Shown in pieces: positions 18,820 to 58,380 of a stretch of 64,000 bases of DNA. Position numbers and translations under genes: made by a program. Location: NCBI RefSeq assembly GCF_018143015.1, contig NC_054751.1:28449438-28513437 (forward strand), given 5' to 3'. The notes under the pieces were generated by a model. It was not told the origin of the DNA, ran no database searches, and worked only from the letters and a program-made list of their open reading frames with translations. Every line of letters starts with the position of its first letter. Position 1 is the first letter of the stretch. This DNA is from Lytechinus variegatus. Its lineage: Eukaryota.

Positions 18820-19830
18820 GTAAGTGTTCTAGCTTGTTTTCTGTTTCTCCTTTTTTCATACTCTTGGACTGTTACATGAACACTTTTATTGTCTCGCCTG
18901 AACGGAGTTCGGCAGAGACCTCGTAATTACTTTTCCTGTTGGTCTGTTAGTCTGTTCCAAAATGTTAAATTTTTTTGTTCAACTTGCTCTCATTTCTTTA
19001 TTTGTGCATCATTTATGTTAATACTTGTACATATGATCCTTGGGTAATGCCACATGTGACTCCATGAAAATGATGGGGTCAAAGGTCACCTACATGTAGG
19101 GGTCAAAAGGTCAAATTATATGAGGGCATGTTCATCGCTTTTTGTTTAACTTTTATTTCTTTATTTCTGCTTCAAGTTTTATCACACTTGGTCCAAATGA
19201 TCCTTGGGTAATACCACATGTGTATTTGTTGAGGATGATGGGTCAAAGGGGCCCAGAATGTAGAATTATTAAGCCAGAAATTATGTACATCATGTAATGA
19301 CAAGGCCCTAGGGGGAACCTGTATTTTCCCAGAGATGAAATCTAAACAACAGGTCAGCTTGATGCTTGCACGTTGTCATGCTATTGGTTTTCCATCTAAA
19401 AATGCCTGCTTGCATTCAAAAACAGAGATCTTGCTTGCTATGTTTGATGATCTAAAATGTAATGTGAATAAGCGATTGTTTACTTTGTAACTACGTGTAC
19501 ATGTACTGTCAATACTGGTTTGACAATTAAAGGCCTGGTCACACTGCCCGAGCGTTGTTGGAGTGGTCATGGAGTGGTAGGGAGAGGGGGTCTAATTTCT
19601 CTCACAAAATTGGGGAAAAAAATAAAAAACAAAACTCGAAAACAAAATAAAAACAATCGAAATCGAAAATGGTGAATGGGAGCGAGCGGTGATGATTTTT
19701 TTTCTCTCTGCTCCAACAATGCTCGGCTGTGTGACCATGCCTTTATAAAAAGCTCATGTGTGCAGACCAAACTGATACTTAATCTCTCTCTTTTATTTCT
19801 ATTTCATTATTTTTGCTATTTTTTAAATTA

Positions 19831-25267: not shown

Positions 25268-25644
25268 GTAAGATCTCTCTCTCTTAATTTCCATACCAAC
25301 TATCTTACCTATTATTTTTTTCATTTTCCATGACTTTCTTGCAATTCAGTATGAATGTGTGACATCATTTTTCTTTTGTGCATTTTAGCATTTTTATGAC
25401 CATATTTCACTGAAATGCCCCCCCCCCCCAAAAAAAAAAAAGTTTTGTGAGATCATTGCTTTGTTGCTCTATTATGATTTCCAATTATTATAAGATTTGA
25501 TGTTATGGCAGGATTCCTGTATGCAACTACATGTACATAAAAAAATATATTTTAGCAGCGTGGGTGTATTATGAAATAATTAGTTTTCCTTGTATATTCA
25601 CACACTATTTATTGAAGTATGTATTTTCTGTGTTTTATTAACAG

Positions 25645-25736
25645 AAAATTGTTAAGTTTGTTGATGCTGTCGTTCTAACCAGTGGGGAAGCCTTACATCT
25701 CACAGCAAAGAGAGAGCTAATTGACAGTAAAGGAGT
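25645..25736 (+). CDS. MVP: MVP exon 6
   Basis: Acceptor ttattaacAG, donor GTAAGT at 25737. KIVKFVDAVVLTSGEALHLTAKRELIDSKG(V) matches MVP (DLVDAVILTEKTALHLRA). Confidence 0.85.
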
Positions 25737-31415: not shown

Positions 31416-31517
31416 GTGAAATTATTGAAGAAGGCATCAAATCCCAATATGTACTAGGTGAAGATGAAGCCTTGGTGTTGGAGTGTGTAGAGAACTTCAC
31501 CGATGACGCAGTTCCAG
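31416..31517 (+). CDS. MVP: MVP exon 10
   Basis: Acceptor tattgcAG; donor GTTAGT at 31518 runs directly into the (AGT)n tract. GEIIEEGIKSQYVLGEDEALVLECVENFTDDAVP matches EQLEQGIQDVYVLSEQQGLLL. Confidence 0.85.
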
Positions 31518-31518
31518 G

Positions 31519-32337
<819 letters not shown>

Positions 32338-32338
<1 letters not shown>

Positions 32339-32460
32339 ATGATGGTGATGATGATGACGATGATGTTGATGATGACGATGATGATGTTGATGATGATGAT
32401 GGTGATGATGATGTTCATGATGTTGATGGTGATGATGATGACGATAATGTTGATGATGAC
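32338..32460. repeat. (GATGAT/GATGAC)n microsatellite adjoining the AGT tract
   Basis: GATGGTGATGATGATGACGATGATGTTGATGATGAC... continues to 32460. Confidence 0.9.
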
Positions 32461-32515
32461 GATGACGGCAACAAAAAAAAACATTATGGTGATCGTACGT
32501 CTTAATAATTTCTAG

Positions 32516-32887: not shown

Positions 32888-32948
32888 GAAAGCTATTCCT
32901 CTGGGTGAAAATGAAGGAATTTACATCAGAAATCTACAAAGTGGAGAG
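32888..32948 (+). CDS. MVP: MVP exon 12
   Basis: Acceptor atcacAG, donor GTGTGT at 32949. RKAIPLGENEGIYIRNLQSGE matches PLDENEGIYVQDVKTGKV. Confidence 0.9.
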
Positions 32949-33068
32949 GTGTGTAGATTTCAGTGGTGGTATATTAAACTTACCTGTTTGAAGTCATGTG
33001 AATAAAGCATCATCAATAGTTCACACTGTAGCATGCAATCATGGTAGGCAAACAATCGTTATTTTTAA

Positions 33069-33380
33069 CCCTGAATGGACTGGGCTATTTTGACGCCCAA
33101 GGAGACTCGGGGGAGCTGATTCAGCCCCCCCCCCCTTTATTATTTCGGCCGTCGATCGTGATGAAAATTGACACACACATTGCCCATGGCATAATCTACA
33201 AATTGTATGGTCAAATCTCATTTCTAATTTATGCATAAAATCAAAAGTTTGTTCTAATTAACTGAATAAGGCCCCTGAAATGCTAATTTTTGTTTCACAG
33301 TCTTTATCCGATTCTGATCAAATGTACTTAAAAAAATTTCAATATCACAACTATTTTCTAAAGATTGTTTGCTATTCTTT
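33069..33380. mobile_element. piggyBac-like MITE, 5' portion of the same family, ending at the MVP exon 13 acceptor
   Basis: TTAA at 33065-33068, then CCCTGAATGGACTGGGCTATTTTGACGCCCAAGGAGACTCGGGGGAGCTGATTCAGCCCCCCCCCC. The body is collinear with the 57040 copy up to about 33380. Confidence 0.65.
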
Positions 33381-33386
33381 AAACAG

Positions 33387-33481
33387 GTGAAAGTCATCAT
33401 GGGTCCAAAGTCATATCTCCTCAACGAACATGAGAAGCTATGGGAGAAGGAGTTAGACCCTCTGGTAGTGTCCATCCTCAA
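33387..33481 (+). CDS. MVP: MVP exon 13
   Basis: Acceptor ctttaaacAG, donor GTAAGT at 33482. VKVIMGPKSYLLNEHEKLWEKELDPLVVSIL matches [29 protein letters not shown]. Confidence 0.9.
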
Positions 33482-34461
33482 GTAAGTTCCTCATCTTATA
33501 AACAATGTTGTTATTTGATGCATGCTCTTATAAATATTAAAGTCAACTCTTTATGTAAATCCTGCTGTTTTCTATTGATGAAAAAATCAGGAAAAAATTG
33601 AAAAGTGGTTCCATATTGATTTGAGAATTTTTTTTCTTGAGAGTTACAATTGTTTTTTGAACGTGTATGTCCATTGCCTGAGCCCTGTATTATGCTTTTC
33701 ACACTGTATTTCCTTAAACCCATACTATGTTTGACCCCGTACTTTTGGGGTTTCACACTGTCTTTCTTAACCATAATGTTAATGTCTTAACCCCGAACTA
33801 TCGCACAGCTCATGAATATTGATAATTTTGCCACACAGAGCATGATTAACATGCAATTTTTACTTCTGTGATTGGCTAATGCTTAGCCCACTTTTCCTTA
33901 GCCCGATTTGGTTTCACACTGCAGTTCTAAGCACTGCAATTGTGGTGCTAGCACCTCAGTAAGCCGGCTAATCCTGCTTTTTAGCAGGGCAAGATAGTAA
34001 TAATAACAATAGGCATTTATACAGTGCCATCTATCTAGAAATATTCTATTCCGAGGCGCGTTATTATTATTATTACCCCTGCTTTAGCTCAGGCTGCCTT
34101 TCAGTGCTCATGCATTCAAGGAAATAATCTTGCTGGGTACCCATTCACCTCACCTGGGTTGAGTGCAGCACAATATGGATAAATTTCTTACTGAATGACA
34201 TTACGCCATGGCTGGGATTCAAAACCACAACCCTCTGTTTTAAAGTCAGAAGACTAATCCACTGGGCCACAGTGCTCCACTAGTACTATACTATTTTCTG
34301 TGCTAGCCCACTTTGGTAAAATATAGTGTGAAACCAAAGTGGGAAACCGAAGTGGGCTAAGCTTAACCCTGGGAAATAGCCCCACCTGTTTCCCGGGGTT
34401 GAGGAAAATTTCTGTAGTGTGAAAAGCATGTACATGTATGTGTCTTTTAATCTGTTTGTAG

Positions 34462-41641: not shown

Positions 41642-41649
41642 GTGAGTGA

Positions 41650-42256
41650 ACACAGTTTGCATACACGATCCAGGACCATGTTTCATGAAGACTTAGACCT
41701 TAATACATGTAAATTTCGCTGCTTTGCCGCCTTGCAAATTTTTTTTACCGCGCCACTTGCGCATCTTTTGAGACCAAATTTGCGTTGTTGTTTTAGATGG
41801 ATTTATTTTCTGTTATGTATGATGGAAAAGGGTCCCCGTCAAGGTTTATCCAAAAAACAAAAAACAGTTATGAAAAAACAAAGAAATACATAAGAATTAA
41901 AAAACAATAAAATACATAGGAAATTAATCATTTTGGGGGCAATTCTGTGTAGAGTTTTGTTAGAAATTAAAAAAAATTCATATGTTTACCAAAACTTAGC
42001 TTTCTCCTAATTATGTAAAGTAAGTTAAAGGCAAAAACATACAAAAAAAATAATTCAAGGCAAATTTCATATGCTTATTTGCATAATTAAATAATAAAAA
42101 AATATAAGTGATCAATTTTTTGAAAATTTAACTTTAGTCTTAGAGTTTACATCCGGCTATACGTGCATGCAAATTTTCGCGGCGATCTTGGCCGAGATCT
42201 GAGGGGGGTCAAACTGACCCCCCCCCCATAGGATATGTTGGTCCAAAATAGCCCAG
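41650..42256. mobile_element. Related MITE (3' terminus ...GGGGGGTCAAACTGACCCCCCCCCC...GGTCCAAAATAGCCCAG|TTAA) ending 31 bp before MVP exon 22
   Basis: The reverse complement of 42236-42256 is CTGGGCTATTTTGGAC, matching the family TIR core, followed by TTAA at 42257-42260. The subterminal region 42160-42230 resembles the 57700-57775 end. The 5' boundary is uncertain. Confidence 0.5.
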
Positions 42257-42287
42257 TTAAATATTCAATCACTTTTATCACCCATAG

Positions 42288-42850: not shown

Positions 42851-44502
42851 TTTCATTGTTACCAGACTTCATTCACTGCTCAAGCGATGATAATATGAAA
42901 ATATTTTAGATCATTGAGAACTTTTCATGTGAACTAAAAAAAATAGACAGATTCTTTCAATAAGGTATGGGGAGTTGGACATACTTATTTTATGGAATCA
43001 CCCTATTGTTTAATAAGGCAGTCAAAGTATAGGAACATTGTTACATTTTCTGTGCAAAAAATAATAACATTGATGGGTTTTTGTAGTTAAAGATAAATTC
43101 CAGTGTTGGTAACGATCTCAAAATTACTTTTTACAGAATCTAATATAATGACCACCCAAGTGTCTGTTTGTATGAATAAAAAATATGTGCCAAAGGATTC
43201 TTGAAGAAATTGTGTAATTGCTGAGAAATAAGCAAAATAAGCGCGGATTCGGTCACTTCCGTCGGGTCTTTATTCCAGCAATAATAATACACTGTCCCAA
43301 GTGTTCCTATCTGTGTTGGTGATTTTCAGTGTGAACATTTTTCAGCGTAGATTTCACGATTCCACAAAGTTCAGTTTATGTAACTGTACCAGATCTAGAT
43401 CCTCGATGATATACTGACAATTAAGCCTGGATTTACAGACTTTCTCATGAAATCAGTGTTTACTGCAACTACTGGCATTTCTCTTTAAGATTAATAATAA
43501 TAATAATAATAATATTCCGCATTTATATAGCGCTTAATACATAGGAACGATGTCTCTAAGCGCTTTACAAACATATTATTACCCCGGTCATCGGATCCTT
43601 GCATGCCCGCATACAATGTATGCACCTTCTCCACTCCCTTTGGAGCATTCCAACAAGAGTTCCAAGACTCAATTGCTAGGCATACTACATATAGGCTTTC
43701 ACATCCTACCGGGTACCCATTTAACACCTGGGTGGAGAGTGGCAAAGTGTGGATTAACGCCTTGCCAAAGGACGCTAGGCCATGGTGGGATTCGAACACA
43801 CGACCCTCTGATTACAAGGCGAGAGTCAGAACCGCTACACCATGACGCTTCCACACAATTGATCAGATCAATTTCAACTCTTTATAAGATGGGCCTTAAA
43901 AAGAAGAATAAGAAGACATGTTATATAGTGGTGGTGCTAATTTCAGGGTTCCCGGCCCATCAGGGAAATCGGAAAGTTATTCTACTTTTTTTCCAGTCAG
44001 GGAAAAGTTGGGGACTTTGGTAAAAAAAATACCTCAAATCAGGGAAAAATGCCTCACATGAGGGAAAAATTAGGGAATTTTGTTCGGCTCAAAAGTCAAA
44101 AGCATGGTAATCAGTCAGACTCTGTTATATTTTGTTGCATATCAAAACAACCATTGAATGACTGTTATGGTGGTACTAATTAGTTTTACATTATTGCTTT
44201 TATACTGAAAATACATGTAATGCAATGCAGCAACTTAGAAAACGTGCAAAACTGGGAATAGGTGTAGATATCAGGGAATTTTGAAAATTCATCAGGGAAA
44301 AATCAGGGAATTTGGAAACTTCATCAGAAAAGCTTGGAACCTTGGATTTTGTTACCTGTTGCTGCCCGAAAGAAAGCATTCAGAGCTCTGAAGGCTTAAA
44401 GGCCTCTCAGAGGGACCTACATGTAGTAAGAAGATAAATGCCTTACCAAAGAGCACCAGCTCTAACAATAGTAACACAATATCAATGTAATCTTGTTTCC
44501 AG

Positions 44503-44694
44503 GCTCAAGCTGAGAGACTTCTGATTGAGGGTCACAGTGCCATCGAGTCAGCCAGACTCAAGGCAGAGGCCGAGGACATCTTATGCAACTCCGAGCTGGA
44601 CAACACCCAGATGGCTCGCCTGTCGGAACTGAACTTTCTAAAGGAGCAGAATGAACTGGAGATAGGCAAAACAAAGCAATTGGCAGATATTGAG
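44503..44694 (+). CDS. MVP: MVP exon 23 (coiled coil)
   Basis: Acceptor tcttgtttccAG, donor GTTAGG at 44695. AQAERLLIEGHSAIESARLKAEAEDIL...QLADIE. The heptad-rich sequence is consistent with the MVP cap helix. Confidence 0.85.
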
Positions 44695-45040
44695 GTTAGG
44701 ATGTACTCTATGAGGTCAGAGGTCAAGATATGTCAGTGATTTTCACTGGCTGTTTTGTTCTCGACCAATCAGATATAAGCCCTCACAGTAGTGTATTAGA
44801 TTACCCAGCATGCAATTTTTTCCAGGTGCTACCATGAGGCCAAGTTAAAGTGAATAAAGGGAACTTAAGCAAAACAGTACATGATGAAGCAGAAGCAGCA
44901 GAAGAAGAAGAAGGAGGAGGAGGAAGAAGGAGAAGAAGAGGAGGAGGAAGAAATAGAGAGAAGGAATGAGTGATGCTACTCAGTTTGTTTATCTAATAAT
45001 TTTAATGTTTTCTTATCAACCCCTCTACATTTTCATTAAG

Positions 45041-45121
45041 GTCGGAAAGTTTGCTGAAATGGTGAAAGCCCTTGGAGCAGAAACCATCATGGAGATGGCC
45101 AATGCTGGACCCAAATTTCAG
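45041..45121 (+). CDS. MVP: MVP exon 24
   Basis: Acceptor tttcattaAG, donor GTAAAG at 45122. VGKFAEMVKALGAETIMEMANAGPKFQ matches [26 protein letters not shown]. Confidence 0.9.
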
Positions 45122-46485
45122 GTAAAGACAATTGGTGACACTACCATAAATACCAGCAAAATTAATACAATGAGAGTGAGGAACAGAAATGGCCTTCTTT
45201 TTTATCCGGACAATGCATTTTTCCACAATTATGAGTAGTTGAAAGTGAACAAAATTATAAGACCAGTTTGTAGTTACCTCATGGACAATTTTGGTCAAAT
45301 GACCTTTCTTTTATTTCATTATGATAGGCAGATTTCAAAGCAAGATATTATTACGTAAGCTTGCCTAACATAGCATGATGAAGAAATTGAATAGACCAGC
45401 TAGGGCCCATAACACAAAACTTAGCAATGATCGTAGAACATTTTTCTATGATTGATCCCATAGACTACAATGTACAATCAATCGTAAAGATCAAGTGTAC
45501 GATCAATCTCTAACCTTTGTGTTACGGACCCTGGTGTCTAGAATAGCACATCAGTGAACACTCTATGAAGGTATTTGTTGTATTTCTACTTTGAATGCAT
45601 ATTTAGAGGATGTTGTACAATGTACATGGCAAACTGTGAAATATACCAGTCATTCGTGGACACATTTTTCTGTGTGGATGTATTTGAAAAACACAATTCA
45701 AAAGAATACATGAATAATCAAGACATCAAAGTTGGTGCTTATCTCATTGAATTTTAAACCACCACGTCACTTTAGTACAAATGACCTTCCTGTGAACATG
45801 CGCAGAATCTTCTGATCATGTGCAGAGTGGAACTATGAACTGTCTTATTGCATCAACTCCCCTCAGTCATCTCCACATTGCCCACTTGACTTTGGGAAAA
45901 AAAAATAGTTGCGTAAACCTTTGCAATCATTTTGATTTTGGCGATCCACTATATAATGATTAATATTATTGCCAAATTATTGCCAAATTTTAAACTTTTC
46001 AACTTTAATTACAAACGACACTTACTTTACACTGAGCAACCCCTTTCTCTTGACTTATAATTATAGCCTCTCCCTCTCTTTCCTCCTTCTTTCCTGTCCT
46101 GTCTTATGGTATATGGATGTATTTTTATGATTATGTATGTATTATGTTTTATGTCTTATGTATTACGTACTATGTGTACTTATGAATGTTATATTGGGCC
46201 ATCCAAACAAGCCTGTTGAGCTTTCATTTGGTCCACCACTATTTTAAAATGTATTTGTATATTGCTTTGTACATATTTTAATTTTGTGGAAATAAATGAA
46301 ATGAAATGAAATGAAACACGTCAAATAAACCCTGAACACATCATTTCATATTCACAAGCTGTTTGCAAGTGCATCAGGCTATGTGTATAATGTAGCCTTG
46401 TTGAAATTTATCCATATTGTGATGCAGTCATTATTATCATTATTATTACTCTCTTTAATTTTGCTATTGATTTTCTTGAACACAG

Positions 46486-46608
46486 GTTGAACTGCTGAGC
46501 AGCCTTGGGCTTGAGATGACGGTGTTCACCGATGGAAATAGCCCCATCAATCTCTTCAACGTTGCACAGGGTCTCATAGCTCAGCCCACACAAAGCGAAA
46601 GTGCTTAG
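46486..46608 (+). CDS. MVP: MVP exon 25 (terminal; stop TAG 46606-46608)
   Basis: Acceptor gaacac[42 protein letters not shown] matches [32 protein letters not shown]. The total CDS is 2586 nt and in frame across all 25 exons. Confidence 0.9.
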
Positions 46609-48668
46609 TAAGTCACCGTGGATTATGCTTGAGAGCAGCTACACCATGTGTTGGGGGTAATACAATGTAGAAATATCATGCAAACGATGTTCCGGAAATG
46701 TTATTCGAGTGCATCACCAAAGTTTTCTTTGATCAGTTTACTTACCTGTAACAAGCTTGTGCAAATTTTCTCTAAGATTTACATTACATGTCTAGTGTCT
46801 TGAGTGAAACAATGAATCGAGAAACATCCTTGAAATGTGAGAATTACTTCCTTTGGCAGTATTCTGAAAATTATTTATCTTTCATTGTATCTTCATCGTC
46901 AGGATTGCCATAACTACTTTTGAAGTTGTAACTTTGATTTGTTGAGGTGTGCAACTTTGCACCCTAGGACCAGAAAGTGTGTGGTTTTGAACCAAAGACA
47001 TGCCTAATTTCAGGAGAGCATTTCAGATTTGTCCATGATTTTTTACCGACAATTGATATAAGCTACTGAAAATCATTAAACCGGATTGGATTGGCGAGGA
47101 GATAATTGGTGAGTTGAAATCACTGATAAAACTTAGATGACAAAGAAAAGGTAAACATGATTTTAGAATTTTCTTCCCTCTGCCTCATAGTGTTAAGGTC
47201 ACAATCAATTGTAATTATCAAACATATTATATCTTTGTTTTACCCCTTGAATTACAAATTGTGTTGACCATTACTTTCACTTGTACATACATCTATATGC
47301 AAATGTGACTATTGTGTACTTAATTCAACCCATTCCTTTTCAATTGAACTCTAAATGAATGCACAAAAAGAGATACTTTGAGTACAATACTTAGCTTAGT
47401 TCTGCTTTAAACATATACCAAGTAAATTTTTTTTTCATGATAGTGAGTTTGTATACATTATCTTTATTATCCATGTAGAAATTTGTTTAATATTTGGCTA
47501 ATAATGATAGTTTATCTGTCATATTGAATGACACTAAAGCTTTTTGTACATTAAGGAATATGCAATATTAAAAGATATATATTAACATGTAAATTATCTA
47601 TGGTAATGTAAAAAAAGATATTATAGTAGTGACAAAGCATCACATTTCCAACATCAGCACCTAAAGTTGTTGACTATTTTCCAAGAATGATGAAGTATTT
47701 CACTCCTTACATTGTATTTTTTATGCATTAATATAAGAGTAGAGAGGCCACTTTAACATGTCTTTCATGCCTTCTATTGCTTAATATATATATGATACTG
47801 TAAAATTAATGCCATGAAGGCAATATACAATGTTAGCTTTTATGTGTTGAGTCAAGTATTGCAGGTAATGTATTACTTTATAATGTTATATCGAGGGATG
47901 GTTAAGGGTACCCTTATGTATATTTTTTATGACTAAAAAAATTATCAAACCAATATTGGGAAAATCTTATTAGTGGGCAGTAAGCTTAGTGATTCAGCAA
48001 CACAGATTTGGTTTCTTGACTTACACAGTTACATACACTGGTAAACATGTTGATCGGAAAATTTGCTGCAAAATTGCAGTTTGTTCACTTTGATTCTGCA
48101 TGCGCTGCATGCAAAGAACATTCAAGCCATAAGATGCTGGGACCAACAGAGAATATGTGACTTTTTTTTAGAATAATGTCAAGATTAGCAATGAAATGAG
48201 TGCCCAAACAGAACAAATAATAGAGAGCTGTTTGAGATTTATATCAATTTATAATATATTATATTATTTATATATTTGATTATGTAAAACTAGAAAACAG
48301 AATTGTCAAATCATATATGTGACTAAAATTTTGAATTTGCTTATTTGGAATTTGAGATTCCTTAATATGGAATATATATAGTTATATAGTTATAGAAAAA
48401 ATAGATTTTAAATGAATTATAGATTCTAAAAGATTCTGATTTGTGTAATTTTCATACTTAAATTTAAAGTTTGAATTAAGTCCTATGCATCCAGTTATCT
48501 TCAAAGTTCTAGTTGTATACCAGCAAATTATTGTAGAAGAATTATACTTTAAGAATGAAATGCAGGGAGTTGTTTGAACTATTATTAATGCTTTATCAAT
48601 GATCCTGCATTATACATATTCTTTATTACCAATTTACCGTTTATTAGGTGCAATAGTCTATACTAGAA

Positions 48669-49015
48669 GCGTTGTGGTGTAGTGGTTCTGACTCTCGCCT
48701 TGTAATCAGAGGGTCGTGTGTTCGATTCCCACCATGGCCTAGCATCCTTTGGCAAGGTGTCAATCCACAATTTGCCACTCTCCACCCAGGTGTTAAATGG
48801 GTACCCGGTAGGATGTGAAAGCCTATGTAGAATGCCTAGCAAGTGAGTCTCTGAATTCTTGTTGGAATGCTCCCCAGGGAGTGGAGAAGGTACATACATT
48901 GTATGTGTGCATGCCAGTATCCCATGACCGGGGTAATAATATATCTGTTACGCTCTTAGAGACGTCGTTCCGATGTATTAAGCGCTATATAAGTGCGGAA
49001 TATTATATTATTATA
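48669..49015 (+). mobile_element. tRNA-derived SINE, family B
   Basis: Head GCGTTGTGGTGTAGTGGTTCTGACTCTCGCCTTGTAATCAGAGGGTCGTGTGTTCGATTCCCACCATGGCC is tRNA-like. An inverted copy lies at 43491-43853 (the ORF tracks there read through it). A tail fragment is at 15440-15590. Confidence 0.8.
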
Positions 49016-50879: not shown

Positions 50880-51252
50880 TAGTGATGACATCACAAAAAA
50901 CCTTTTTTGCATTTTAGCGTTTTTGTTACCATATTTTGTTAGAGCATGATCAAAAGCCCCCACTATCAAAATTTGGTGGGAATCGGTCCATGGGGGCCTG
51001 AGATATGACCTCATGAATACATAATTAGCCTCAATTAAGTCAATAACCTGGTTGGTTCATAACTTTCAGAACCAGGCCAATAATACATTTACTTCAATGG
51101 GGCTAATTATGTATTCATGAGGTCATATCTTAGGGCCCCAATGACCGATTCCCACAAGATTTCGGTAGTGGGGATTTTTCACCATGCTCTATTAAAATAT
51201 GGTATCAAAAACGCCAAAATGCAAAAAACGAAAAGTGATGACGTCACACTTC
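50880..51252. mobile_element. Near-perfect foldback (hairpin) element, about 370 bp
   Basis: GTGATGACATCACAAAAAACC...GGTCCATGGGGGCCTGAGATATGACCTCATGAATACATAATTAGCC is mirrored by GGCTAATTATGTATTCATGAGGTCATATCTTAGGGCCCCAATGACC...GTGATGACGTCACAC. The central loop is about 75 bp. Confidence 0.75.
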
Positions 51253-56210: not shown

Positions 56211-57039
56211 GATGACTTGCCTCAGTCAAATCTCTTTGAGATCGCAGAAATCTGTTCGACCTAGGAGAAGTTTGACTCAAAAGATGTGAATAAGACATGT
56301 TTTACAAATCTATAATGCTTCAAGGTTTAACATAACTGAAGTCTTCTATTTATCCATCTCTGCCTCCTCTTCTTTCTGACATTCCAACTTCTTCTGTGTA
56401 CTATTCTATCTCTGTATCCCCTCTCTCTGTATGTTATAATGTAGAATATTTTGCTGTAACTTGAATATGTATTGAGATGTTTATTATCTGTACAAATACA
56501 TGTAATTCAGCCTTTGGCTATTAATTGGATTTTCTTACAAGAAATAGCATTTGAACCAAATTAATCAGAATCTGCATCTTGAAAGTATTTTTTAATGCTG
56601 TTTCGTACAGAAGAAATCTCTACTGTCAATAAAAAAATACTTTTTTAAAAGTAAGAATTTCAGGTTGTTGAAGTGGCCATTGTCTATAATTTCATTCATT
56701 TTTATAATGTTTAATAATTGATTACGATCTTTTACTTCTTTGTATTGTGATTTGTAATATTTGTACAATGTTGAAATTCAAATTTACAAACTTATATATT
56801 ATAGACTCTAACTCTGTAACAAAAAAATAACACTATTCAGTAATTTAAAAATAAAGGTGCAAGTATTAATTAAAAAGGACAAGAATTTGCCAGTTAACCT
56901 AGAGGTCAGAGTTAACCTCATTTTTTCTTTAATGAATAACGAGCAATATCATATGATGCAGACCTCCTTCTTTATAATCGTTAGCACCGCTCTTGGATGC
57001 ATATTTATTCTTGTTCGTTGATTTAATTTAGGGAATTAA

Positions 57040-57784
57040 CCCTAAATAGACTGGGCTATTTCAACGCCTAAGAAGACTGGGGGGGCTGATTCAGCCCCCC
57101 CTTATGATCTCGGCCGTCGCTCGCGCGATCGCAACGAAAATTGGCACACGCGTTACCCATGGCATTATCTACAAAACTGTAACATCAAATTCTGCAAAAA
57201 ATCTCATGTTTCATTAATTATGCTAATTTATGCGTAAAATCATAAGTTTGCTCTAATTAATAAAATAATGCCCCTGAAATGCTAATTTTTGTTTCACATA
57301 CTCTAGATAGGCATCTGATCAAATTTATTTTAAAAAAATTCAACATCACATTTATTTTCTTATGTATTCTATTGTTTTCTAAATTTCTTATGTATTTCTT
57401 TGTTTTTCGACTTTTTGTTTTTTATTGTTTTTCAATGGAAATTGTCGGGGACTTTATTTTGACCACAAAAAAGAGAAAATCAATTGATTTTAAGCAGTAA
57501 AAGGAAAAATAATGATACATTTATGAATTTTTGCTAAAAACACTATTTGCATTGGATTTGTACACAAATTCACGTTTTTGAGTAATTTTGGGTCTGCATG
57601 CACTTACGAAATGTTGCGTAATTTCTGAACCACGTACCCGGGGGTCACAATTTTGGTCTCAAAAGTTGCACGAGACTTGAAAGTAAAAAGTCAGCGAGCG
57701 ACGCGGTCAAAAAATTTTGCGCGGCGGATTTATCGTGAAAAATGTTGAGGGGGGGGCTGAATCAGCCCCCCAGTCTTTTTAGGG
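57040..57784. mobile_element. piggyBac-like MITE (TTAA target-site duplication) in MAK16 intron 2
   Basis: Termini CCCTAAATAGACTGGG...CCCAGTCTTTTTAGGG are inverted repeats flanked by TTAA on both sides (57036-57039 and 57785-57788). Subterminal palindromes GGGGGGGCTGATTCAGCCCCCCC occur at both ends. Confidence 0.75.
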
Positions 57785-58380
57785 TTAAAGGTCAAGTCCA
57801 CCCCAGGAAAATGCTGACTTGAATAAATAGAGAAAAATCAAACTAGCATATGCTGAAAATTTCATCAAAATCGAATGTAAAATAAGAAAGCTATGACATT
57901 TTAAAGTTTCGCTTATTTTTCACAAACAGTGATATGCACAACTAGGTGAGTCAGTTGATGTCCATCACTCACTAATTCTTGTTTTTTCTTGTTTGAATTA
58001 TACAATATTTAATTTTTATGGATTTTACAATAAGGACCAACTTGACTGAATCATATATGTTCAGGGAGGAATTAATCGTTATATCACTTGACAATGAGAA
58101 AATCAAAATATTTCATGTAATAGAATACAAAAGAAATGGTGAGTGGATGATGTCATAGTCTCATTTGCATACCAGCCAGGATGTGCATATAACCATTTGT
58201 GAAATTAAGCAAAACTTTTGAATGTCATAACTTTCTTATTTTACAATTACATCGGATTTTGACAAAATTTTCTGTGTTATGCTTGTTGGGTTTTTCTCTT
58301 TTTATTCAAATCAACTTTTTGTTGGAGTGGGCTTGTCCTTTAACCTGAACTGGATCAGGAAGCTCTTTAAGCTGACCTAC

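What the first reader, a model, noticed from the sequence alone, without database searches (positions are those of the whole stretch)
33065..33390. A piggyBac-like MITE copy runs right up to the acceptor of MVP exon 13
The element starting at TTAA|CCCTGAATGGACTGGG (33065) is collinear with the full 745-bp copy at 57040-57784. That alignment covers the TIR, the GGGGG...CTGATTCAG...CCCCC palindrome, the CATGGCAT box, TTATGCATAAAATCA, and the region ...ATGCTAATTTTTGTTTCACA.... It continues through CAAATGTACTTAAAAAAATTTCAATATCACAACTATTTTC to about 33380. The exon 13 acceptor CTATTCTTTAAACAG|GTGAAAG is at 33385-33386. The polypyrimidine tract and branch region of this acceptor therefore appear to lie inside transposon-derived sequence.
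Basis: partly seen in the sequence, partly recalled or inferred. Interest (0 to 1): 0.55.

Follow-up and report, generated by a model that had tools for sequence, protein, structure and literature searches.

The report
Truncated transposon remnant beside MVP splice acceptor
An old, broken copy of a small piggyBac-type mobile element fills two thirds of an ancient intron of the major vault protein gene and stops 27 bases short of the next exon, which is an ordinary situation because the last stretch that carries the splice signals cannot be shown to come from the element.

Summary
Window 33065-33359 is the 5' 40% of a TTAA-flanked, CCCT-terminated element. Its complete 745-bp copy lies at 57040-57784 (nhmmer E 1e-48, 85% identity over 289 aligned bases).

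It lies in a 438-nt MVP intron (32949-33386). That intron's position and phase are shared with a mollusc and a fish, so the intron predates the element.

Demonstrable homology stops at 33359. The last 27 nt (AAAGATTGTTTGCTATTCTTTAAACAG: pyrimidine tract and AG) match the family no better than:
- 12-13 of the 21 other MVP acceptor tails;
- 13-17% of random intronic 27-mers.

nhmmer posterior probabilities fall to 0.2-0.3 there.

The copy really does run to within 27 nt of the acceptor, and the most likely branch site (CTAAAG, A at about 33361) sits on the boundary. The polypyrimidine tract is best read as the original intron end, kept when the element's 3' 430 bp were deleted.

A second, more eroded family copy (41726-42257, minus strand) also stops 29 nt before another MVP acceptor.

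Verdict: an inert intronic transposon remnant, a known kind of thing, of low interest.

The parts
32949..33386 (+). MVP intron (438 nt) between the exon ending ...GGAGAG (32948) and the exon starting GTGAAAG (33387); GT at 32949-32950, AG at 33385-33386
   Evidence: A phase-0 intron sits at the same G-[EK]|V position in Bulinus truncatus (L013) and Liparis tanakae (L014).
33065..33068 (+). TTAA target-site copy flanking the 5' end of element copy A
33069..33084 (+). 5' terminal inverted repeat CCCTGAATGGACTGGG of copy A
   Evidence: 3 matches in the window, against 0.2 expected by chance.
33109..33135 (+). Subterminal G-run/CTGATTCAG/C-run palindrome of copy A
   Evidence: hairpin predicted. 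The equivalent hairpin in copy B has z = -3.5.
33069..33359 (+). Body of copy A with demonstrable homology to positions 1-325 of the 755-bp reference (copy B plus its TTAAs). This is the 5' 40% of the element; the 3' TIR and about 430 bp are missing.
   Evidence: 73-93% identity in every 30-nt bin, and nhmmer posterior probabilities of 0.9 or more up to 33359.
33360..33386 (+). Intron tail AAAGATTGTTTGCTATTCTTTAAACAG, holding the candidate branch A (33360-33362), the pyrimidine tract and the AG. Its origin is not attributable to the element.
33387..33481 (+). MVP coding exon (VKVIMGPKSYLLNEHEKLWEKELDPLVVSIL...), probably exon 13; donor GTAAGT at 33482
57036..57788 (+). Complete reference copy B: TTAA + 745-bp element (57040-57784) + TTAA. 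Internal T-rich tandem units at 57356-57433 begin where copy A's homology stops.
41726..42257 (-). Copy C, an older and more eroded member of the family with both termini degraded. It lies in the MVP intron 41643-42287, and its 5' end is 29 nt upstream of the acceptor AG at 42286-42287.
   Evidence: nhmmer E 3e-19 with B, 1e-13 with L006, 4e-14 with L005.

Best explanation
A non-autonomous piggyBac-type (TTAA) element inserted by cut-and-paste at the TTAA now at 33065, inside an MVP intron that already existed.

Later a deletion removed the element's 3' part (about 430 bp, including the 3' TIR and the second TTAA) and whatever intron sequence followed it. About 27 nt in front of the exon survived.

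Those 27 nt (pyrimidine tract and AG, with the branch A at or next to their 5' edge) are most simply the ancestral 3' end of the intron. Selection would have kept them because any deletion reaching further would have destroyed splicing of a constitutive, conserved exon.

The remnant can no longer move and has no demonstrable function. It is passenger sequence making up 67% of the intron.

Shown:
- the identity and extent of the remnant;
- the absence of a 3' end;
- the ancient intron position;
- the lack of detectable homology in the tail.

Inferred:
- the order of events;
- the deletion;
- the position of the branch point.
For: - Homology of 33065-33359 to copy B: E 1e-59 and 1e-48, 85% identity.
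- No 3' TIR anywhere near. The TIR pattern occurs only at 33065, 57036 and 57769. There is no other hit of B's 3' half between 33.4 and 35.6 kb.
- The tail is not distinguishable from null sequences:
  - Anchored global scores are 1/0/0. These are reached by 24% of random intronic 27-mers, 43% of composition-matched 27-mers and 50% of shuffles (summed over the three targets), and by about half of the other MVP acceptor tails.
  - With anchored free-end extension, 12-13 of 21 other acceptor tails score as well or better.
  - With unanchored local alignment against five family members, 17 of 21 do.
  - nhmmer posteriors are 0.2-0.3.
- The intron position and phase are identical in a mollusc and a fish, so the intron and its acceptor predate the insertion.
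- The divergence between A and B (K2P 0.167) indicates an old insertion.
- Copy C shows the same arrangement in another intron, ending 29 nt before the acceptor. This fits a general limit of roughly 25-30 nt that must stay intact.
Against: - BLAST and a permissive global alignment do extend into the tail: ATTGTTTGCTA against ATTGTTTTCTA, then TTCTT. The family sequence at that point is itself T-rich. A true but eroded continuation therefore cannot be excluded with only three collinear comparators.
- No empty-site or sister-species sequence was available, so the deletion scenario is inferred.
- No transcript or lariat data are available.
Confidence: 0.7

Rival explanations
1. One reading: the whole 3' splice region (branch site, pyrimidine tract, perhaps the AG) derives from the element's internal T-rich tandem-unit region. 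On this reading the transposon replaced the ancestral splice signals.
For: - Copy A's homology stops exactly where copy B's T-rich 26-28-nt tandem units begin.
- Permissive alignments give 15/18 to 17/20 matches with two gaps in 33364-33383.
- BLAST extends to 33380.
Against: - The same or better scores are obtained with most unrelated MVP acceptor tails and with 13-50% of random, composition-matched or shuffled 27-mers.
- The acceptor tail of exon 25645 scores 10 against 1 for copy A's tail, although its intron has no family homology.
- nhmmer posteriors are 0.2-0.3.
- The intron is ancient, so an ancestral acceptor existed.
Confidence: 0.2
2. Copy A is a complete member of a short subfamily. 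It would have inserted at a TTAA 4 nt from the AG, with the TTAA at 33379-33382 as its second target-site copy.
For: A TTAA is present at 33379-33382.
Against: - The 16 nt before that TTAA (TTGTTTGCTATTCT...) show no match to the 3' TIR CCCAGTCTTTTTAGGG.
- The TIR search with 3 mismatches on both strands finds nothing there.
- No palindrome lies near that end.
Confidence: 0.02
3. The intron was created by the element (introner-like intron gain).
For: The element makes up 67% of the intron.
Against: - The intron position and phase are shared with Bulinus and Liparis.
- The element starts 116 nt inside the intron and supplies neither splice site.
Confidence: 0.01
4. The similarity is a chance match between AT-rich sequences.
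For: None for 33065-33359. It applies only to the tail and to the 19616-19663 BLAST hit.
Against: - E 1e-48 to 1e-59, collinear over about 295 nt and including G+C-rich landmarks.
- The TIR pattern gives 3 matches against 0.2 expected.
Confidence: 0.01

Closest known systems
piggyBac/TTAA-superfamily MITEs (for example the coral CMITEs, PMC2872659; human MER75/MER85, from my own knowledge)
   Same: - TTAA target-site duplication.
- A 12-19-bp TIR beginning CC[C/T]T.
- Non-coding and under 800 bp.
- Multi-copy and found in introns.
- The terminal and subterminal repeats are spaced differently at the two ends, as in T. ni piggyBac (13-bp terminal and 19-bp subterminal repeats with unequal spacers; my own knowledge).
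   Different: - The sequence is unrelated to the CMITE TIRs listed in PMC2872659, and the element is much longer (745 bp against about 100 bp).
- The subterminal repeat is a self-complementary 22-nt G/C palindrome.
- No autonomous partner was identified.
- The family could not be checked against Repbase or Dfam, so it may already have a name.
Transposon-supplied 3' splice signals, as in antisense Alu exonization (PMC2330237)
   Same: A T-rich stretch of an intronic mobile element lies where a pyrimidine tract and branch site are needed.
   Different: - No new exon is created here; the acceptor serves an ancient constitutive exon.
- The T-rich tail cannot be shown to come from the element.
Introner-type intron gain by DNA transposons (my own knowledge: Huff et al. 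2016; Gozashti et al. 2022)
   Same: A MITE-like DNA transposon makes up most of a short intron.
   Different: The intron is older than the element, and the element carries neither splice site.

Membership tests
piggyBac/TTAA-type non-autonomous element (MITE) | TTAA target-site duplication flanking the element | tested here: met
   - Copy B has TTAA at 57036-57039 and 57785-57788.
- Copy A has TTAA on its 5' side only, because its 3' end is lost.
- Relatives L004, L005 and L006 have TTAA next to the TIR.

piggyBac/TTAA-type non-autonomous element (MITE) | Terminal inverted repeats of 12-19 bp beginning CC[C/T]T (criterion as stated in PMC2872659) | tested here: met
   CCCTAAATAGACTGGG / CCCAGTCTTTTTAGGG. 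The arms are 95% complementary over 20 nt including the TTAA. Copy A has CCCTGAATGGACTGGG.
piggyBac/TTAA-type non-autonomous element (MITE) | Small size and no transposase coding capacity | tested here: met
   The element is 745 bp and its longest ORF is 73 aa. No ORF above 234 aa exists anywhere in the window.
piggyBac/TTAA-type non-autonomous element (MITE) | Multiple dispersed copies | tested here: met
   There are three copies in 64 kb (A, B, C). Related elements occur in six marine metagenome contigs, L002-L007. The genome-wide copy number is unknown.
piggyBac/TTAA-type non-autonomous element (MITE) | Mobilised by a piggyBac-family transposase; autonomous partner with matching ends | not testable with these tools
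   The window holds no transposase, and no eukaryotic genome or repeat library was available.
Transposon-derived 3' splice signals (branch site and pyrimidine tract from the element) | Homology of the last 20-40 nt of the intron to the element family, above what unrelated acceptors show | tested here: not met
   The tail 33360-33386 is not distinguishable from null sequences. Homology is secure only upstream of position -27.
Transposon-derived 3' splice signals (branch site and pyrimidine tract from the element) | Mapped branch point inside element-derived sequence | not testable with these tools
   Only motif inspection was possible: CTAAAG at the boundary (A at about 33361), ATCAC (A 33347) and CTGAT (A 33316).
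Introner-like intron gain | Intron absent at that position in relatives; element ends coincide with the splice sites | tested here: not met
   The intron is present at the same codon boundary in a mollusc and a fish. The element starts 116 nt downstream of the donor.

The most novel reading that the evidence does not exclude
The element edge supplies the working branch point (CTAAAG, where the CT is element-derived) of a deeply conserved constitutive MVP exon. The same family has also come to sit 27-29 nt before a second MVP acceptor (copy C). This would mean that sequences from this MITE family are repeatedly tolerated, or even recruited, as the branch-proximal part of 3' splice sites in this genome.
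Probability: 0.2. Interest if true: 0.3.

Novelty: new member of a known kind. Interest (0 to 1): 0.12.

Why it matters
It matters little beyond annotation. It shows how close a transposon remnant can lie to a constitutive acceptor, at about 27 nt in two separate introns of one gene. It gives a clean example of why T-rich transposon interiors appear to 'align' with pyrimidine tracts by composition alone. It also documents a TTAA-type MITE family with G/C palindromic subterminal repeats that also occurs in marine metagenome contigs. If the branch point were shown to be element-derived, it would be a modest example of splice-signal turnover at an ancient intron.

Tried and rejected
1. **Sister-species intron.** Two protein searches found no MVP more than 64% identical in the C-terminal part or 50% identical in the N-terminal part. 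Exact look-up of seven window ORFs found nothing.
2. **Distant MVP loci.** L011 and L012 are intron-poor, protist-like loci with no intron at this site. L013 (Bulinus) and L014 (Liparis) were useful only for intron position.
3. **Collection scans with the TIR.**
   - Viral contigs: 0 hits.
   - Genome contigs: 3 bacterial hits, which match only over the TIR length and are chance; about 9 are expected.
   - Metagenome contigs: 7 hits, of which 6 are true relatives.
4. **The 19616-19663 BLAST hit.** It was rejected as a T-rich chance match, because nhmmer --max does not recover it.
5. **A family fragment upstream of exon 25645.** This idea, prompted by the high tail score, was rejected.
6. **TTAA at 33379-33382 as a second target-site copy.** Rejected because there is no TIR there.
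7. **tRNA and Rfam scans of the window.** Both were empty.
8. **Locating exons.** The human MVP sequence used for this was recalled from memory and served only as a lead. MVP identity rests (Vault, Vault_2/3/4 and MVP_shoulder domains in the hits).

Full report
**What is at the coordinates**

The sequence reads TTAA|CCCTGAATGGACTGGG from 33065. A complete relative lies at 57036-57788: TTAA, a 745-bp element (57040-57784), then TTAA.

The TIR pattern TTAACCCTNAANNGACTGGG occurs three times in the window: at 33065 and at both ends of the 57-kb copy. Shuffles give 0.2 matches on average.

The reference copy (B) has the following anatomy:
- A 16-nt TIR, 95% complementary over 20 nt when the TTAA is included.
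- A perfect 22-nt palindrome, GGGGGGCTGATTCAGCCCCCCC, near each end.
- An extra TIR-like 15-mer, 26 nt in from the 5' end only.
- Three T-rich tandem units of 26-28 nt at 57356-57433.

The palindromes fold as strong hairpins (z = -3.5 and -2.6). The longest ORF in B is 73 aa, and no ORF longer than 234 aa exists in the window. The element is therefore non-autonomous.

**Collinearity of copy A with copy B**

| Method | Result |
|---|---|
| blastn | 33065-33380 against B 1-342, E 1e-59 |
| nhmmer | 33066-33373, E 1.2e-48 |
| Gapped global alignment | 73-93% identity in every 30-nt bin from 33065 to 33364 |
| Divergence | p-distance 0.149, K2P 0.167 over 289 aligned bases |

So the element is real and is the 5' 40% of the family. 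The 3' TIR, the 3' palindrome and about 430 bp are missing, and they are not found elsewhere nearby.

**The gene context**

The surrounding gene is a major vault protein gene on the + strand, from about 16.2 to 46.6 kb. The translated exons hit proteins carrying Vault, Vault_2/3/4 and MVP_shoulder domains at E 1e-81 to 1e-101.

- The upstream exon ends ...GGAGAG at 32948.
- The intron is 32949-33386 (438 nt; GTGTGT...AACAG).
- The next exon starts GTGAAAG at 33387.
- Eleven upstream coding exons were located and at least one segment is missing from the chain, so 'exon 13' is plausible.

The same phase-0 intron, between G-[EK] and V, is present in the snail Bulinus truncatus (GGAAAA|GTAAGA...CTCAG|GTTCGC) and in the fish Liparis tanakae (GGAAAG|GTCGGT...CTCAG|GTGCGC). 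The intron and its acceptor are therefore much older than the insertion. This rules out intron creation by the element.

**Where the homology ends**

This is the crux. Confident alignment runs through ...CAATATCACAACTATTTTCT, ending at 33359. nhmmer posterior probabilities change along the sequence as follows:
- 0.9 or higher up to 33359;
- 0.8-0.5 for AAAG (33360-33363);
- 0.2-0.3 for 33365-33373, where the alignment stops.

I tested the 27-nt tail 33360-33386 (AAAGATTGTTTGCTATTCTTTAAACAG) against the collinear continuation of three family members: B, C and L004.

| Test | Tail result | How null sequences compare |
|---|---|---|
| Anchored alignment, global in the tail | Scores 1/0/0 | Summed over the three targets, reached by 24% of 3000 random intronic 27-mers, 43% of composition-matched ones and 50% of shuffles; about half of the 21 other MVP acceptor tails also reach it |
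| Anchored free-end extension | Scores 4/4/3 | 12-13 of 21 other acceptor tails, and 13-17% of random 27-mers, do as well |
| Unanchored local alignment to five family members | Best score 10 | 17 of 21 other acceptor tails do as well |

One control is telling. The acceptor tail of the exon at 25645 (TATGTATTTTCTGTGTTTTATTAACAG) scores 10 against the element's T-rich unit. Yet that intron has no family homology even with nhmmer --max at E ≤ 10.

The apparent continuation to about 33380 is thus what any T-rich acceptor tail gives against the T-rich interior of this element. Copy A's homology stops exactly where B's T-rich tandem units begin. That explains why the eye, and BLAST, carry on.

**Splice signals**

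- Pyrimidine content of positions -25 to -4 is 0.59. This is at the low end of the gene's range of 0.50-0.86.
- Branch-like motifs:
  - CTAAAG, with A at 33360-33362, about 25 nt from the AG. Its CT belongs to the last securely homologous bases.
  - ATCAC, A at 33347, at -39.
  - CTGAT, A at 33316, at -70.
- An AG at 33362-33363 lies between the upstream candidates and the true acceptor. By the AG-exclusion-zone rule (established knowledge, not tested here), this favours the boundary motif.

The branch site is therefore probably at the very edge of the element-derived sequence. This is inference only.

**Other family copies**

A third, older copy (C) lies on the minus strand at 41726-42257. 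It sits inside the 645-nt MVP intron 41643-42287.
- nhmmer gives E 3e-19 with B, 1e-13 with L006 and 4e-14 with L005.
- Both of its termini are eroded.
- Its 5' end lies 29 nt upstream of the acceptor AG at 42286-42287.

Both intragenic copies thus stop 27-29 nt before an acceptor. This fits a minimal zone that selection keeps intact.

A scan of metagenome contigs with the TIR found six contigs (L002-L007, marine, 32-38% G+C). They hold related TTAA-flanked elements sharing the TIR, the G/C palindrome, ATCTCGGC, TAATTATGCAAATATGC and the 3' AAATTTGGT..CAAAAG.TGC.CAAGAC motifs. The three bacterial-genome hits are chance matches of TIR length.

**Interpretation**

A piggyBac-type non-autonomous element inserted at a TTAA in a pre-existing MVP intron. 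It later lost its 3' 57% by deletion, up to about 27 nt from the exon. It now persists as immobile passenger sequence.

The hallmarks of the piggyBac/TTAA class as given in PMC2872659 (TTAA duplication; 12-19-bp TIR starting CC[C/T]T) are met. The transposase partner could not be sought.

For the pyrimidine tract the test was run and failed. Derivation from the element cannot be excluded with so few close copies (I give it about 0.2).

**What could not be done**

The source species was not identified. No MVP closer than 50-64% identity exists in the searchable protein set, and window ORFs are not in the collection. The orthologous intron of a sister species, which would be the decisive comparison, could not be examined. 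No repeat library (Repbase or Dfam) was available to name the family.

**Verdict**

The biology is ordinary: an old intronic MITE remnant close to, but not demonstrably forming, a splice acceptor.

Noticed in passing
window 41726-42257 (minus strand), intron 41643-42287: A third, more eroded copy of the same MITE family fills most of another MVP intron. It ends 29 nt upstream of that intron's acceptor AG (42286-42287), the same spacing as copy A.
   Followed up: partly
window 25618-25644: The acceptor tail of the MVP exon at 25645 (TATGTATTTTCTGTGTTTTATTAACAG) resembles the MITE's T-rich unit more than copy A's tail does. Yet its intron shows no family homology by nhmmer, so the match is compositional.
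   Followed up: yes
window 31520-32490: A microsatellite of roughly 0.9 kb, of (AGT/AGC)n then (GAT)n type with a 9-nt register, starts directly after the donor of the MVP exon 31416-31519. It gives a spurious 234-aa poly-Ser ORF.
   Followed up: no
window 43509-43851 and 48666-49006: An inverted repeat pair with arms of about 340 nt (89-95% complementary) brackets the last MVP exons (44503-46578). These are probably two oppositely oriented copies of another repeat, and they contain a tRNA-like GAGCGTTGTGG...GTGG motif that also occurs at 1095 and 35052.
   Followed up: no
window 50903-51228: A foldback with 142-nt arms (86% complementary) separated by 42 nt, which looks like another MITE-like element.
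   Followed up: no
L002-L007 (marine metagenome contigs): These contigs hold relatives of the MITE family with the same TIR (CCCTAAAAAGACTGGG), TTAA flanks and G/C palindromes. L002 and L007 share an 83%-identical 349-bp element end. The source organisms are unknown.
   Followed up: partly
window 16191-46578 (MVP gene): This MVP is unusually divergent. Its N-terminal half is only 40-50% identical to any protein found, including sea urchin, coral, mussel and vertebrate MVPs. It is either a divergent paralogue or comes from an unsampled lineage.
   Followed up: partly
window 33318-33386: The exon-13 reading frame stays open for 69 nt upstream of the acceptor, into element-derived sequence (SNVLKKISISQLFSKDCLLFFKQ). 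The upstream AG at 33362-33363 would be out of frame if it were used as an acceptor.
   Followed up: no
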